Assembly: GCA_947598155.1 (NCBI GenBank)
Contig: CANQFC010000005.1
Coordinates: forward strand, 81,115 to 145,114
Reading direction: 5' to 3'
DNA from: an uncultured Clostridia bacterium
Lineage (GTDB): Bacteria; Bacillota; Clostridia; Oscillospirales; Acutalibacteraceae
Length of the DNA stretch: 64,000 nt
Positions 26,150 to 39,772 of this stretch are shown here, piece by piece (the first letter of the stretch is position 1; every line of letters begins with the position of its first letter). A program made the position numbers and the translations under genes. Under the pieces are notes generated by a model. It ran no database searches, was not told the origin of the DNA, and saw nothing but the letters and a program-made list of their open reading frames with translations.

Positions 26150-27052
26150 TTGAAAATTACGGTTGTGGGCGCAAACAGTTATATCGCAAGAAATCTGATT
26201 TTTGAAATAAAACAGCGTAAAATAAAAGCTGACCTTAAGCTGTATGACTATGCTGACAGTCAGACAGACGGAGAGCAAAATTATCAAAAAATAGATATTC
26301 TTGATCGAGATTCTGTATCCAAAATAGATTTTGACTGTGATATTATATATATGTTTGTGGGTAAAACAGGAACCATTACGGGGTTTGGAAACTATGAAGA
26401 ATTCATAGATATTAACGAAAAAGCGCTTTTGAATATACTTAATGAGTACAGAAATCAGCATTCGTCGGCTAAAATCATTTACCCTTCTACAAGACTTGTA
26501 TATAGAGGCGATGATATGCCTCTTAAAGAGGATGCGGTAAAAGAGTTTAAAACAATTTATGCAATCAATAAGTATGCCTGTGAGCAATATCTCAAAATAT
26601 TCCATAATTTTTTTGATGTGAAGTATTGTATATTCAGAATATGCGTTCCTTATGGCACTTTACTACCCGCGGCATCCTCATATGGTACGATAGGATTTAT
26701 GCTCAATAAGGCTAAAGCAAATCAGAATATTACTCTGTATGGCGACGGTAGCGCAAGACGTACATTTACATATATTAAAGATTTGTGCGACATTTTGATT
26801 GATGGCGCGCTGTCAGATAATTGTCTGAACGACGTCTACAACATCGGCGGTGAAAACAGAAGTCTGAAAGAGGTTGCGGAAATGATTGCAAAGAAATATG
26901 GCGTTGGAATAGATTATATTGATTATCCAAGTGAACAGCTAAAAATAGAATCAGGCGATACGGTATTTTGTGACGAAAAGTTAAAGCAGCGCTTGCGTGC
27001 AGACGCTGCTACCCCTGAAAATTTGCGGGGGGGGGGTATAACTATCAACTGA
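26150..27052 (+). CDS. NAD-dependent epimerase/dehydratase-family SDR; C-terminal tail crosses a G10 tract
   Basis: VVGANSYIARNL and the YAINK (YxxxK) motif. TTG start with AGGAG upstream. The last 9 codons include and follow the G-tract. Confidence 0.7.
   Translation: MKITVVGANSYIARNLIFEIKQRKIKADLKLYDYADSQTDGEQNYQKIDILDRDSVSKIDFDCDIIYMFVGKTGTITGFGNYEEFIDINEKALLNILNEYRNQHSSAKIIYPSTRLVYRGDDMPLKEDAVKEFKTIYAINKYACEQYLKIFHNFFDVKYCIFRICVPYGTLLPAASSYGTIGFMLNKAKANQNITLYGDGSARRTFTYIKDLCDILIDGALSDNCLNDVYNIGGENRSLKEVAEMIAKKYGVGIDYIDYPSEQLKIESGDTVFCDEKLKQRLRADAATPENLRGGGITIN
27027..27036. repeat. G10 homopolymer tract
   Basis: Counted directly; lies 15 nt before the stop of 26150..27052. Confidence 0.95.
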
Positions 27053-27083
27053 TTATATCTGCCGCAGAAAAGGCGGCGGCATA

Positions 27084-28016
27084 ATGAAAAAGGTGGTTAT
27101 AACCGGAGCCGGAGGATTCATCGGTGGAGCGCTGACAGAACTTCTTCTCGGAGAGGATATAACGGTTTACGGTGTTGATATTTCAGAAAAGGCGCTTGAA
27201 AGACATTGTGGGAGAAAAAATTTTATTCCTATTATTGCGGATTTTTCAAAGTATGTTGACTTACATAAAATGATTGAAGATCGTGATATTGAAGTTTTCT
27301 ACCACTTTGCATGGTCCGGAGGATTTGAAAAATCACTTGGTGATTATAAGCTTCAACTTGACAATGCCAAGGCGTGCGGCAATGCGATAACTGCGGCAAT
27401 ATCTCTTAGATGCCAAAAATTTGTCAATGCGGGTACATATAATCAGTTTGAAATTACTTCGATACTTAATTCCAACTTCGACTTTCTTAGGCCAACGTGC
27501 ATTTATTCGGTTGCAAAAACTGCGGCGCACATCATTTGCAAAACATTAGCTGTAAATAAAATAGAATACTGCGCCGGACTTATCCCGATGCCTTACGGAG
27601 AAAACAACCGCTCTATGCAGCTTCCTAATGTTTTGATGCTTTCGCTTCTTCGGGGTGTTTCGCCCAAATTGATAGAAGGAGATAATTGGTACGATATGGT
27701 TTACATATCGGATATAGCAAAGGCATTTGAAGCAATCGGGCGCAATGGCAAAAATGGTAGTGAATATTATATCGGTCACAGGGAGAAAAGAACTTTCAAG
27801 GAAATTGTAACTGAAATTAGAAATGTAATAGCACCGGAAGTTGAACTGAAATTCGGTGAATATAGTGAGCAAAAGATATTTGATGAATCTCTTATTGATT
27901 TTGATAAATTGTACAATGATACTGGATATGAATGTATTTCAAATTTTGATGAAACAGTAAAAAGAACAGCTGACTGGCTGCAATTTGATACAGTAATGAA
28001 GGAGAAAACAATATGA
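27084..28016 (+). CDS. NAD-dependent epimerase/dehydratase-family SDR
   Basis: [12 protein letters not shown] and YSVAK (YxxxK) motifs. Confidence 0.7.
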
Positions 28017-31011: not shown

Positions 31012-32115
31012 ATGCGGATATTATACATAACTACATTCGGAGGAACAATGGATTTCTTCAAATCATTTATAAAAGAACTGATTGAAGAAGGCAATACCGT
31101 TGATATTGCCACCAATATCTCAGAAAGCGATGTTCCCGCTTGTTACCGCGAATGGGGATGCAAGGTCTATCCGCTGTCCTGCACGCGTTCACCCTTTGAC
31201 AAAGGGAATATTAGTGCAATAAAGGAAATTCGCCGTATCGTGATACAGGGTAATTACGATATAGTCCATTGCCACACGCCTATTGCGGCGTTTTGCACAA
31301 GATTGGCTTGCATTTCGCTTAGGAAAAAGGGCGTAAAGGTTATCTATACAGCCCACGGCTTCCATTTTTACAAGGGCGCGCCGCTGAAAAATTGGCTTAT
31401 TTTCTATCCGGCGGAGTGGTTATGCGCTTTTTGGACCGACGTGCTTATTACAATAAATAAGGAAGATTATGCGCTTGCCCAAAAGCATATGCACGCAAAA
31501 AAGGTTGAGTATGTTCCTGGCGTCGGAATTGATTTGCAAAAGTTTTCCTCTAAGCCTTATACCGCCGAAAGAGTAAAAGATATACGTTCTCAGCTCGGCT
31601 TGACCGATGAAAATAAATTGATTTTGTCCCTCGGCGAATTGAATGAAAACAAAAACTTCGAGGCGGTTATTCGCGCTTTAAAGGAGCTTGACGATAAGTC
31701 AATTCACTATGCCGTTGCAGGCGAGGGCAAATTGCACGATTATTTTCTTAATTTGGCAAAGGAACTCGGCGTTTTTGAGCAGCTGCATTTGCTCGGCTTC
31801 AGGAACGACGCTCCTGATTTATATAAGGCGGCGAATTTGTATATCAATTCTTCTCTGCGTGAGGGCTTGCCGGTTTCCGTTATGGAGGCGCTTGCATCCG
31901 GCACGCCGGTAATCGGTTCAAATATTCGGGGTAACGCCGATTTGGTAAGCGCCCAAAATCTGTTTAATCCCTTGGATATTAAAGATATTGCGGATAAAAT
32001 ACGCGGCTGTTTATTCGGTGAAATCTTGCAGGGGGCTTCGCAAAACGAGGATATTTGCAAATTCGGCTCGCAAAATGTTTCAAAGCGTATAAAAGAAATT
32101 TATAAACAATGTTGA
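31012..32115 (+). CDS. family 4 glycosyltransferase
   Basis: GT-B C-terminal pattern NSSLREGLPVSVMEALASGTPVIGS. Confidence 0.75.
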   Translation: MRILYITTFGGTMDFFKSFIKELIEEGNTVDIATNISESDVPACYREWGCKVYPLSCTRSPFDKGNISAIKEIRRIVIQGNYDIVHCHTPIAAFCTRLACISLRKKGVKVIYTAHGFHFYKGAPLKNWLIFYPAEWLCAFWTDVLITINKEDYALAQKHMHAKKVEYVPGVGIDLQKFSSKPYTAERVKDIRSQLGLTDENKLILSLGELNENKNFEAVIRALKELDDKSIHYAVAGEGKLHDYFLNLAKELGVFEQLHLLGFRNDAPDLYKAANLYINSSLREGLPVSVMEALASGTPVIGSNIRGNADLVSAQNLFNPLDIKDIADKIRGCLFGEILQGASQNEDICKFGSQNVSKRIKEIYKQC

Positions 32116-32125
32116 GGTGTTTGGT

Positions 32126-32701
32126 ATGAATAAGGAAAACAAAAAGGTTTCTTACTATTATAAAAGTGATTTTTTCAGAATGACGGGAAGAGATACAAGC
32201 AATATTGCCTTCTTTTTATTCCATTATTTCGGCGAGTTTCGTTTGAGATACGTCTTTTATTTAAGATGGCTTCAGACTCATTCAAAAAGACATATACTGT
32301 ATCCCCTGTTTTATACCTCAAAGTTATTATTGGGAAGAAAGCACGGCTTGGAAATTTCTCATAATACGACGATCGGTCCCGGATTGTATCTGGGCCACCC
32401 CTACAATATTACCGTGGGGGGGGGTACTGTATTAGGCAAGAATATAAACTTACATAAGGGCGCGACAATAGGCGCAGAGAACAGGGGAAAAAGAAAGGGT
32501 ATTCCCACACTCGGCGACAATATTTCCGTCGGTATCAACTCAACAATAGTCGGGAATATTACTGTCGGCAGCGATGTTATGATAGCTTCCAACAGCTTTA
32601 TTAATCAGGATATACCGGAACATTCCGTTGTATTCGGAAATCCTGCGGTTGTAAAAAGTCGGCAAAACGCAACCGAGTCGTATGTTATTAACAGGGTTTA
32701 A
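32126..32701 (+). CDS. hexapeptide-repeat (LbH) O-acetyltransferase, serine-acetyltransferase-like; contains a G9 tract
   Basis: Repeated [LIV]G motifs: ITVGGGTVLGKNINLHKGATIG...VGINSTIVGNITVGSDVMIASNS. Confidence 0.75.
   Translation: MNKENKKVSYYYKSDFFRMTGRDTSNIAFFLFHYFGEFRLRYVFYLRWLQTHSKRHILYPLFYTSKLLLGRKHGLEISHNTTIGPGLYLGHPYNITVGGGTVLGKNINLHKGATIGAENRGKRKGIPTLGDNISVGINSTIVGNITVGSDVMIASNSFINQDIPEHSVVFGNPAVVKSRQNATESYVINRV
32416..32424. repeat. G9 homopolymer tract inside the acetyltransferase CDS
   Basis: Counted directly; encodes the GGG of ITVGGGTV. Confidence 0.95.
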
Positions 32702-38075: not shown

Positions 38076-38816
38076 ATGAAAGTTTACGCATTACTCACCG
38101 GTCGTGGCAATAACACACTAAAGGATAAAAATATCCTCGATTGCCTTGGACATCCGGTTCTGTATTATCCCGCAAACGCCGCTTTAAACGCGAAGACGGT
38201 GGAAAAGCTGTTCTGTTCGAGCGACGACGATAAAATTCTCGCCGAGGCGCAAAAGCTCGGTCACACTCCAATCAAACGCCCGGCAGAGCTTGCAAAGCCT
38301 TCGAGCCAGCATGTGGATTGCATTTTGCATGCTCTCGGCGAAATTGAAAAGAATTGTGAATTACCCGATATTTTAGTTGTTACGCTTGCAAACAATGTAA
38401 CCGTAAAATCCGAATGGATTGACGATTGTGTAAAAATGATGGAGAATAACCCCGAGCTCACAGCCGTTGTTCCCGTGTATGAGGATAACGACCATCATCC
38501 GTTGAGGGCAAAAACCGTTGATGAAAACGGATTGCTTCAAATGTATGAAAAGGGCATAACGGGCAAGGTTTCAACCAACCGTCAGGATTTGCCGAAATGC
38601 TATTTCCTTTCCCATAATTTTTGGGCTTTAAGGGTTGAAAACCTGTTAAATAACGCTTCCGACGGCCAGCAGCCGTGGGCGTTTATGGGCAATAATATAG
38701 GATATTATGAGATTGACGAGTCGATAGATATACACAAAGAGGTTGACCTTTTGCTTGCAAAAGAGTGGATAAAGACGAATATGCCCGCAAATTCTGCGGG
38801 GGGGGGGCAGTTATAG
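38076..38816 (+). CDS. CMP-sugar synthetase-like cytidylyltransferase (NeuA/CTP_transf_3 family); C-terminal tail crosses a G10 tract
   Basis: YALLTGRGNNTLKDKN...IKRPAELA pattern. The last 7 codons include and follow the G-tract. Confidence 0.7.
   Translation: MKVYALLTGRGNNTLKDKNILDCLGHPVLYYPANAALNAKTVEKLFCSSDDDKILAEAQKLGHTPIKRPAELAKPSSQHVDCILHALGEIEKNCELPDILVVTLANNVTVKSEWIDDCVKMMENNPELTAVVPVYEDNDHHPLRAKTVDENGLLQMYEKGITGKVSTNRQDLPKCYFLSHNFWALRVENLLNNASDGQQPWAFMGNNIGYYEIDESIDIHKEVDLLLAKEWIKTNMPANSAGGGQL
38798..38807. repeat. G10 homopolymer tract
   Basis: Counted directly; lies 6 nt before the stop of 38076..38816. Confidence 0.95.
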
Positions 38817-38855
38817 GCTGACCCTTACCGCTGTTCTCCGAAAGGAGGCGGCGTG

Positions 38856-39521
38856 ATGAGTATTGCTTGCTTTATACCCATAAAAGCCAATTCCGAGCGC
38901 GTACCGGGCAAGAATTTCCGTGTACTTAACGGTAAAAAACTTTATGAATATATAATTGAGCATTCCGTTGACGCCGGCGCTTTTGACGATATTATTATCG
39001 ACACGAACAGCGGCGAAATTAAGACGTTTGCCGAAAAACTCGGCTGTAAAGTCATTGAGCGTCGGGAAGAGCTTGCCAGAAATACGGCAAACGGAAATGA
39101 CCTTTTAAACTATCATTTTGAAAAATTCCCAGAATATGACTATTATTTTCAGCTTTTTGCGACTGCGCCGTATCTTCAGCCTTCATCAATAAAAGCGTGC
39201 GCTTATAAACTGACAAACAGTACCGAGTATGACTCGTGTTTTACGGCAATAAAGCATCAGGGATTTTTTTGGCTTAATAATACCAGTATAAATTACCGTC
39301 CTTGTATTCTGCCGCGCAGTCAGGATATGCTGCCGGTGGTTGAAGAAACGACAGGACTGTATGGAATCACTCGGCAGGCGCTTGAAAAATATCACTGCCG
39401 AATAGGCGCGAAACCCTATATTCACTTCGTAAGTAAATTTGAAGCGGTGGACATTAACACTGAGGAGGATTTGAAAATAGCGGAGCAAGTCGGAAGAGAG
39501 TACTGGAAATATACGCGGTGA
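38856..39521 (+). CDS. second CMP-sugar synthetase-like cytidylyltransferase (CTP_transf_3 family)
   Basis: ACFIPIKANSERVPGKN...IERREELA pattern. AGGAGG lies 7 nt upstream of the ATG. Confidence 0.7.
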   Translation: MSIACFIPIKANSERVPGKNFRVLNGKKLYEYIIEHSVDAGAFDDIIIDTNSGEIKTFAEKLGCKVIERREELARNTANGNDLLNYHFEKFPEYDYYFQLFATAPYLQPSSIKACAYKLTNSTEYDSCFTAIKHQGFFWLNNTSINYRPCILPRSQDMLPVVEETTGLYGITRQALEKYHCRIGAKPYIHFVSKFEAVDINTEEDLKIAEQVGREYWKYTR

Positions 39522-39590: not shown

Positions 39591-39718
39591 ATTAAATAAC
39601 GCTTCCGATGGCCAGCAGCCGTGGGCGTTTATGGGCAATAATATAGGATATTATGAGATTGACGAGTCGATAGATATACACAAAGAGGTTGACCTTTTGC
39701 TTGCAAAAGAGTGGATAA
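39591..39718 (+). repeat. 127-bp duplicate of the 3' end of 38076..38816 (copy of 38646..38772)
   Basis: One mismatch seen by eye. After the repeat this copy continues ...EWIKSNLP-stop, instead of the G-tract tail. Confidence 0.9.
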
Positions 39719-39772
39719 AAAGCAATCTCCCGTAAACTGACAGGGGATTCGCACCTAAAAGAGGTTTTTTAA

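What the first reader, a model, noticed from the sequence alone, without database searches (positions are those of the whole stretch)
27013..27086. Homologous G10-containing linkers upstream of two glycan genes; one alternative tract length in each case places the upstream stop codon in 1-nt overlap with the downstream ATG
The two junctions are built alike.
- At 27013..27086 the order is CCCTGAAAATTTGC, then G10, then 47 nt ending GAAAAGGCGGCGGCATA, then ATG.
- At 38784..38858 the order is CCCGCAAATTCTGC, then G10, then 48 nt ending GAAAGGAGGCGGCGTG, then ATG.
- In both, the upstream ORF (the SDR 26150..27052, the cytidylyltransferase 38076..38816) reads through the tract as Gly-Gly-Gly and stops shortly after.

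Reading the other frames by hand gives a parallel result.
- At the first site a +1 G (or -2) shift extends the ORF by 10 codons to a TAA that overlaps the next ATG (TAATG at 27082..27086).
- At the second site a -1 G (or +2) shift extends it to a TGA that overlaps the next ATG (TGATG at 38854..38858).

Homopolymeric G tracts of this length are established slipped-strand phase-variation devices. The parallel geometry suggests tract-length-dependent translational coupling of the downstream genes 27084..28016 and 38856..39521. Alternatively, the linkers could be a shared cassette-junction scar.
Basis: partly seen in the sequence, partly recalled or inferred. Interest (0 to 1): 0.65.

Follow-up and report, generated by a model that had tools for sequence, protein, structure and literature searches.

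The report
Poly-G switch module between glycan genes
Two runs of ten G's sit in a reusable junction between sugar-coat genes of an uncultured gut Clostridium-like bacterium; changing a run by one G probably turns translation of the next gene on or off and swaps the tail of the gene before it.

Summary
G10 runs lie at 27027-27036 and 38798-38807. G11/G8 at site 1 and G9/G12 at site 2 extend the upstream ORF to a stop overlapping the next ATG (TAATG, TGATG).

Comparative data show a real, conserved, portable module in polysaccharide loci of uncultured gut Clostridia (HisD is 87% identical to an Oscillospiraceae MAG).
- **Tract length varies.** Near-identical strains carry G9, G10 or G13. One 6.9-kb contig differs from the window only by the tract.
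- **The extended frame is the native coding frame.** It gives 18 synonymous against 8 non-synonymous codon differences. A relative has it locked by a decayed G6 tract.
- **The downstream start is occluded.** Every overlap-type junction has a hairpin over the ribosome-binding site and start (-14 to -20 kcal/mol). The two window junctions rank first and second of 54 gene starts. Non-overlapping junctions lack the hairpin.
- **The tail ends Ala-Ala in most variants**, the key ClpX degron determinant.

In the window both sites are one G away from the extended frame. The best reading is phase-variable translational coupling of the downstream gene, plus C-terminal tail switching. This is inferred, not shown. 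I rate it a new variant of a known kind.

The parts
26150..27052 (+). Upstream gene 1: SDR-type NAD-dependent epimerase/dehydratase-family enzyme, 300 aa as assembled (G10). It ends ...RGGGITIN*.
   Evidence: Pfam Epimerase, E = 1.3e-26. The same gene is called in other assemblies with 296, 300 or 301 aa, depending on tract length.
27013..27030 (+). Near-palindrome (hairpin 1), CCCTG...CGGGG, whose 3' arm is the start of the G run.
   Evidence: Predicted in all five folds. The pattern also matches on the minus strand. It is absent from L011, L060 and L063, so it is not essential.
27027..27036 (+). Poly-G tract, G10 (site 1). The tail frame needs G8 or G11.
   Evidence: Near-identical strains carry G9 (L001) and G13 (P0122).
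27037..27084 (+). Tail-frame coding segment YNYQLIISAAEKAAA*, read only at G8/G11. Its stop TAA 27082-27084 overlaps ATG 27084. The off-frame stops are at 27039-27041 and 27050-27052.
   Evidence: The coding signature across W1, L006 and L026 is 18 synonymous against 8 non-synonymous codon differences in this frame, compared with 6/20 and 2/23 in the other two frames.
27052..27085 (+). Hairpin over the downstream translation-initiation region. The inner stem is CTGCCGC/GCGGCGG (27059-65 with 27073-79). The outer stem is ATTAT/ATAAT (27052-56 with 27081-85) and includes the stop/start overlap.
   Evidence: -14.0 kcal/mol, second most stable of 54 gene starts in the window. The outer stem shows a compensatory change, ATTAT/ATAAT in W1 against ATCAT/ATGAT in L006 and L026.
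27084..28016 (+). Downstream gene 1: a second SDR-family enzyme (310 aa), with only a weak ribosome-binding site (AAGG, 10 nt upstream of the ATG).
   Evidence: Pfam Epimerase, E = 1.4e-23. The same SDR-linker-SDR pair occurs in L006 and L026.
32416..32424 (+). Third poly-G tract (G9), inside the hexapeptide O-acetyltransferase gene 32117-32701. It is in frame (ON) as assembled, and any other length class truncates the protein at about 105-114 aa.
   Evidence: It is G9 in two other assemblies as well.
38076..38816 (+). Upstream gene 2: PseF-like cytidylyltransferase CT-A, 246 aa as assembled (G10). It ends ...MPANSAGGGQL*.
   Evidence: Pfam CTP_transf_3 and NCBIfam PseF-like. Homologues without a tract end ...EWIKENYTD* at about 238 aa.
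38784..38800 (+). Palindrome (hairpin 1), CCCGCA-AATTC-TGCGGG, running into the G run.
   Evidence: The same sequence occurs in L018 and, with small changes, in L009 and L026.
38798..38807 (+). Poly-G tract, G10 (site 2). The tail frame needs G9 or G12.
   Evidence: A strain variant has G11 plus CA (L005), and contig L004 breaks exactly at the tract.
38808..38856 (+). Tail-frame coding segment SYRLTLTAVLRKEAA*, read only at G9/G12. Its stop TGA 38854-38856 overlaps ATG 38856. The off-frame stops are at 38814-38816 and 38819-38821.
   Evidence: L018 has G10 followed by TA and then the same segment, which reads YSYRLTLTADLRKEAA* in frame at G10.
38824..38860 (+). Hairpin over the ribosome-binding site and start. 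The inner stem is CTCC-GAAA-GGAG and the outer stem is GCTGT/GCGGC. The site GGAGG is fully paired.
   Evidence: -17.3 kcal/mol, the most stable of 54 gene starts. Equivalent hairpins with different 5' arms occur in L018, L063 and L054.
38856..39521 (+). Downstream gene 2: PseF-like cytidylyltransferase CT-B (221 aa).
   Evidence: Pfam CTP_transf_3, E = 8.8e-21. The CT-A-linker-CT-B order is conserved in L018 and L063.
38646..38791 (+). First copy of a 146-bp direct repeat: the 3' end of CT-A up to the tract.
   Evidence: About 95% identical overall, and near-identical over about 130 nt, to 39592-39736.
39592..39736 (+). Second copy of the 146-bp direct repeat, downstream of CT-B. It ends in a tract-free, native-like CT-A C-terminus (...EWIKSNLP*).
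   Evidence: The two copies bracket the G-linker plus CT-B as a cassette.

Best explanation
The two G10 runs are genuine hypermutable homopolymer tracts. They sit in a conserved, portable junction module found in polysaccharide gene clusters of uncultured gut Clostridia.

**Anatomy of the module**
- The upstream gene runs past its native C-terminus into a short linker, and then into the G run.
- Behind the run, one frame (the 'tail frame') is a conserved coding sequence: Tyr-Asn/Ser-Tyr-...-Lys-x-Ala-Ala.
- That frame passes through a hairpin that buries the ribosome-binding site and start of the next gene. It ends in a stop codon overlapping that start (TAATG, TGATG, or ATGA in a relative).
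- The other two frames stop 5-19 nt after the run, upstream of the hairpin core.

**Proposed mechanism**
- Replication slippage changes the run by one G.
- In the tail frame, ribosomes translate through and melt the hairpin, terminate on the start codon and re-initiate. The downstream gene is made.
- In the other two frames the hairpin stays closed, and the downstream gene is translated poorly or not at all.
- The upstream enzyme keeps its catalytic core in all states. Only its last residues change.

In the window both junctions are one G away from the tail frame, so the downstream SDR and cytidylyltransferase genes would be in the low state.

**Shown:** the tract is real, its length varies between strains, the tail frame is under coding selection, the stop/start overlap is conserved, and the hairpins are predicted and co-occur with the overlap.

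**Inferred:** switching within a population, and any effect on translation of the downstream gene.
For: 1. **Tract variability.**
   - L001 is identical to the window over 6.9 kb except G9 against G10.
   - The 90% cluster of the upstream protein holds G9, G10 and G13 forms.
   - At site 2, L005 has G11, and contig L004 breaks at the tract.
2. **Conservation across lineages.** The tract sits at the same junction in lineages 70-85% identical: L009, L011, L012, L018, L026, L057, L063.
3. **The tail frame is coding.**
   - Short-type tails give 18 synonymous against 8 non-synonymous codon differences. The other two frames give 6/20 and 2/23.
   - Third codon positions carry 18 of 30 differences.
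4. **A locked form exists.** L006-L008 have a decayed tract (G6 then A) fixed in the tail frame, with a TGATG overlap.
5. **Natural states fall in both classes.** The tail frame is assembled in L006, L011, L018, L026, L060 and L063. It is not assembled in W1, W2, L009, L012 and L057.
6. **The overlap recurs in three diverged linker subtypes:** TAATG in W1, TGATG in L006, L026, W2 and L018, and ATGA in L063.
7. **Hairpins cover the downstream start.**
   - They are -14.0 and -17.3 kcal/mol, ranks 2 and 1 of 54 starts. The others average -3.9 (sd 2.2, minimum -8.9).
   - All seven overlap-type variants have one (-14 to -20), with different 5' arms and one compensatory pair.
   - Junctions without overlap have open starts (0 to -7 kcal/mol).
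8. **Other readings tested and not found.** There is no promoter-like or terminator-like site at either linker on the gene-sense strand, and no Rfam family.
Against: - There is no read-level or expression evidence. Tract lengths come from assembly consensus, which is least reliable at homopolymers.
- Most near-identical strain assemblies of the window species show G10 at site 1 (6 of 8 contigs) and none shows G11. If the tail frame is the 'on' state, it is rarely the majority.
- Stop/start overlaps are common in this operon anyway (for example ATGA at 28013 and 28888). The overlap may simply be the normal compaction of the native frame.
- At site 1 the G10 stop (27050-27052) abuts the hairpin's 5' arm. 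A terminating ribosome could open the hairpin, so G10 may be an intermediate state rather than off.
- Related tracts (the long type, and L060) end their tail frame 18-35 nt before a downstream start that is open and has its own ribosome-binding site. The tract therefore has a role that does not need coupling.
- Formal covariation support for the hairpins is thin. There is one two-sided compensatory change, several one-sided changes, and the two linker types pair in different registers.
Confidence: 0.5

Rival explanations
1. C-terminal phase variation only. The tract switches the tail of the upstream enzyme and has no effect on the downstream gene. In its strongest form, the tail-frame ending Ala-Ala acts as an ssrA/Ala-tail-like ClpXP degron, so the tail frame destabilises the upstream enzyme.
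For: - 11 of 14 tail-frame C-termini end in Ala-Ala: KAAA, KEAA, KAVAA, KVVAA, PKAA and SAA. The third positions of the Ala codons vary.
- Of 363 fetched proteins, only 5 end in AA, and all five are tail-frame products. None of 66 window ORFs of 150 aa or more ends in AA.
- The AA ending persists where the stop does not overlap the next ATG (L009, L057, L060).
- Ala-Ala-COO- is the key ClpX determinant of the SsrA degron, and Ala tails are degrons in Bacillus subtilis (PMC11317155).
- The tail is predicted to be flexible, with pLDDT 43-52.
- 3'-end poly-G tracts that change only the C-terminus, including one in an rfbB SDR, were described in Helicobacter canadensis (PMC2823697).
Against: - In overlap-type linkers the Ala codons are part of the hairpin's 3' arm and of the spacer between ribosome-binding site and ATG. 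RNA-level constraint is therefore confounded with peptide constraint.
- The residue before Ala-Ala varies (A, E, V, K, S), whereas ClpX prefers Leu.
- Two long-type tails end in ...GNMK and ...GNIK, and P0133 ends in ...KAAAE.
- This reading does not explain why hairpins over the downstream start occur only at overlap junctions.
- It is not exclusive of the coupling model.
Confidence: 0.25
2. Junction scar or recombination module. The linker is sequence left by, or used for, shuffling of gene cassettes between polysaccharide loci. The G run is a mutational hotspot with no regulatory consequence.
For: - The same linker joins different gene pairs: SDR-SDR, CT-A-CT-B, and an unknown gene to CT-A in L018.
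- L018 carries two identical copies flanking CT-A, and the contig ends at one of them.
- In the window, the G-linker plus CT-B is bracketed by 146-bp direct repeats.
- In L004, CT-B is followed by different genes.
Against: - A neutral scar would not keep a G run of nine or more across lineages 70-85% identical.
- It would not show a coding signature in exactly one frame.
- It would not keep early stops in both other frames in every variant.
- It would not keep a hairpin over the ribosome-binding site through different 5'-arm sequences.
Confidence: 0.1
3. Fixed-ratio recoding. RNA polymerase slippage on the G run, or ribosomal frameshifting, produces a constant mixture of frames from one genomic length. 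This would set the ratio of upstream tail forms and downstream expression without a heritable switch.
For: - The run is as long as an RNA-DNA hybrid. (That this favours slippage rests on general knowledge, mostly of A/T runs.)
- All 15 distinct tracts found are G on the sense strand.
- The conserved tail frame is out of frame in most assemblies of the window species.
Against: - Genomic length does differ between near-identical strains.
- Ribosomal frameshifting would need -1 at site 1 but +1 at site 2.
- Several lineages have the tail frame in phase genomically.
Confidence: 0.08
4. The G run in the mRNA is the target of a C/U-rich small RNA, as for RepG and tlpB-hp0102 in Helicobacter pylori. 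Regulation would then be graded by tract length.
For: There is a precedent for length-dependent post-transcriptional control at a G-repeat that affects a co-transcribed glycosyltransferase (PMC8295292).
Against: - The window has no C run of 7 or more and no Rfam small RNA.
- The tract here is inside a translated ORF rather than a leader.
- This reading does not explain the frame-specific features.
Confidence: 0.03
5. Homopolymer sequencing or assembly artefact.
For: Length calls at G9-G13 are error-prone, and contigs break at the tracts.
Against: The tract is present at the same junctions in independent assemblies from ENA, Logan and NCBI MAG projects, and in diverged lineages.
Confidence: 0.02

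Closest known systems
Simple-sequence-repeat (homopolymeric tract) phase variation of surface-glycan genes in Campylobacter, Helicobacter, Neisseria and Haemophilus
   Same: - Poly-G runs of 8-13 lie in capsule, LOS or O-antigen biosynthesis genes.
- Length varies by one unit between close relatives.
- Length changes shift the reading frame.
- The window's third tract (32416) and L063's second tract (at the 5' end of an acyltransferase) are textbook cases.
   Different: - The two tracts in question sit at the 3' end of a gene and leave its catalytic core intact.
- The host is an uncultured Gram-positive-type gut commensal (Clostridia). I found no description of SSR phase variation in this group in the searched literature.
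C-terminal phase variation (Snyder et al. 2010, Helicobacter canadensis; PMC2823697)
   Same: - Poly-G tracts lie near the 3' end, so only the last residues change.
- One of the published cases is an rfbB NAD-dependent epimerase/dehydratase in a glycan cluster.
   Different: - Here one frame is a conserved coding tail shared by unrelated enzymes, and it ends in Ala-Ala.
- Here the tail-frame stop overlaps the next start inside a hairpin that occludes the ribosome-binding site.
- The paper does not discuss effects on downstream translation (0 hits for 'coupl').
Translational coupling through an occluded ribosome-binding site (classic operon and RNA-phage examples; from general knowledge)
   Same: - The stop/start overlap takes the forms TAATG, TGATG and ATGA.
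- The downstream ribosome-binding site and start are paired in a stable hairpin that an upstream translating ribosome would melt.
   Different: In known cases the coupling is constitutive. Here, whether the upstream ribosome reaches the hairpin depends on the length of a hypermutable tract.
lex2A-lex2B of Haemophilus influenzae (recalled from memory; only partly checked)
   Same: A repeat-containing short upstream ORF (lex2A) precedes the glycosyltransferase gene lex2B. lex2A is listed among repeat-bearing genes in PMC3116884. From memory, the phase of lex2A governs expression of lex2B.
   Different: - The lex2A repeats are tetranucleotide units at the 5' end of a small leader-like ORF, not a homopolymer at the 3' end of a full enzyme gene.
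- I could not verify the coupling mechanism in the held literature.
RepG small RNA and the tlpB-hp0102 G-repeat in Helicobacter pylori (PMC8295292)
   Same: A variable G-repeat controls a co-transcribed LPS glycosyltransferase post-transcriptionally, in a graded manner.
   Different: That repeat lies in a 5' leader and works by small-RNA pairing. The authors argue against direct translational coupling.

Membership tests
SSR-mediated phase-variable (contingency) locus | Homopolymer or short repeat of mutable length (about 8 or more for G/C) within or next to an ORF. | tested here: met
   G10, G10 and G9. These are the only G or C runs of 7 or more in the 64 kb.
SSR-mediated phase-variable (contingency) locus | Repeat length differs between closely related strains or populations. 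| tested here: met
   Site 1 is G9, G10 or G13 in near-identical contigs, and L001 differs from the window only at the tract. Site 2 is G10 or G11. These are assembly consensus calls only. Site 3 is G9 in the window and in two further assemblies.
SSR-mediated phase-variable (contingency) locus | Length change alters the reading frame or the expression of a gene. | tested here: met
   The frame consequences were computed for all three sites. Expression effects were not measured.
SSR-mediated phase-variable (contingency) locus | High-frequency, reversible switching within a clonal population. | not testable with these tools
   This needs read-level data or cultures.
C-terminal phase variation (Snyder 2010) | The tract lies in the last part of the ORF, so all frames give a near-full-length protein with different C-termini. 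| tested here: met
   296-311 aa at site 1 and 245-260 aa at site 2. The native core ends before the tract.
Translationally coupled gene pair | The upstream stop overlaps or abuts the downstream start. | tested here: met
   Met only in one tract-length class: TAATG at G8/G11 and TGATG at G9/G12. The overlap is conserved in L006, L018, L026 and L063.
Translationally coupled gene pair | The downstream initiation region is weak or occluded, so independent initiation is poor. | tested here: met
   The predicted hairpins are -14.0 and -17.3 kcal/mol, ranks 2 and 1 of 54 starts. This is a prediction only.
Translationally coupled gene pair | Downstream translation depends on upstream translation. | not testable with these tools
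   This needs reporter assays.
ssrA/Ala-tail-type ClpXP C-degron | A free C-terminal Ala-Ala. | tested here: met
   11 of 14 tail-frame products end in AA. All 5 AA-ending proteins among the 363 fetched are tail-frame products.
ssrA/Ala-tail-type ClpXP C-degron | ClpXP-dependent degradation conferred by the tail. | not testable with these tools
ClpX in this organism was not looked for.
Promoter-spacer SSR (transcriptional phase variation) | The tract lies between -35 and -10 hexamers of a promoter. | tested here: not met
   There is no sigma-70-like promoter at either linker on the gene-sense strand. The TAYAAY after the tract varies at codon third positions, including the key position 6 of a -10 hexamer.
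Programmed ribosomal frameshift site | A slippery site with a fixed shift direction that restores a conserved downstream frame. | tested here: not met
   Site 1 would need -1 and site 2 would need +1 from the assembled lengths. Several lineages are genomically in frame.
Known RNA family (Rfam 15) | A match at the gathering threshold. | tested here: not met
   Only two tRNAs are found in the window.

The most novel reading that the evidence does not exclude
The module is a two-gene toggle. In the tail frame the upstream enzyme acquires an Ala-Ala C-degron and is removed by ClpXP, while the ribosome that made it melts the hairpin and starts the downstream enzyme of the same superfamily (SDR to SDR, cytidylyltransferase to cytidylyltransferase). 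In the other two frames the upstream enzyme is stable and the downstream one is silent. One G more or less would then swap one sugar-modifying enzyme for another without touching either catalytic domain. Because the module is portable, it could make any gene pair in a glycan operon phase-variable.
Probability: 0.15. Interest if true: 0.85.

Novelty: new variant of a known kind. Interest (0 to 1): 0.62.

Why it matters
- **A different way to build a switch.** Phase variation is usually described as a repeat at the 5' end of a gene, or in its promoter, that turns that gene off. Here a hypermutable tract sits in a reusable junction. It leaves the upstream enzyme's catalytic core intact and apparently gates the next gene through ribosome traffic.
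- **It could work on genes that cannot carry a repeat.** Enzymes whose N-terminus cannot tolerate an inserted repeat, such as Rossmann-fold enzymes, could be made phase-variable one by one inside a long operon. There would be no polar damage to neighbouring genes.
- **It extends the phenomenon to a new group.** SSR-based contingency behaviour would reach abundant, uncultured Gram-positive-type gut commensals. Their surface-glycan variability matters for phage and immune interactions, and metagenome assemblers and gene callers handle it poorly: contigs break at the tracts and gene ends are miscalled.
- **The Ala-Ala tail raises a new possibility.** If it is a degron, this would be a heritable, stochastic switch acting on protein stability.

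Tried and rejected
- **Promoter in the linker (G run as spacer).** The scans found no promoter or terminator at either linker on the gene-sense strand. No consistent -35 appears across variants, and the -10-like TAYAAY varies as codons do.
- **Known RNA element.** Rfam gives only tRNAs.
- **One covariation model for all hairpins.** An ATG-anchored alignment of seven variants gave only a 5-pair consensus with no two-sided changes, because the two linker types pair in different registers. I fell back on per-sequence folds and on listing the changes by hand.
- **The motif scan of species-representative genomes** (CCCDBRAWWTYYGCGGGGGGG) returned 39 hits, about the chance expectation. Only two were real: L018 and L026, both rabbit-gut MAGs.
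- **The JGI metagenome scan** with tract plus 3' motif returned 4 hits. Only one was plausibly related: L054 from human gut, where the tail frame is interrupted and the tract is intergenic.
- **The long tail as the native SDR C-terminal helix (F..W motif).** The alignment is suggestive (RFIMEHYC against KFAEWC) but not decisive.
- **Ribosomal frameshifting as a single explanation.** The two sites need opposite shift directions.
- **Look-ups that gave little.** The exact-sequence look-up of the GT gene 31012-32115 found nothing. Site 3 showed no length variation in two other assemblies.
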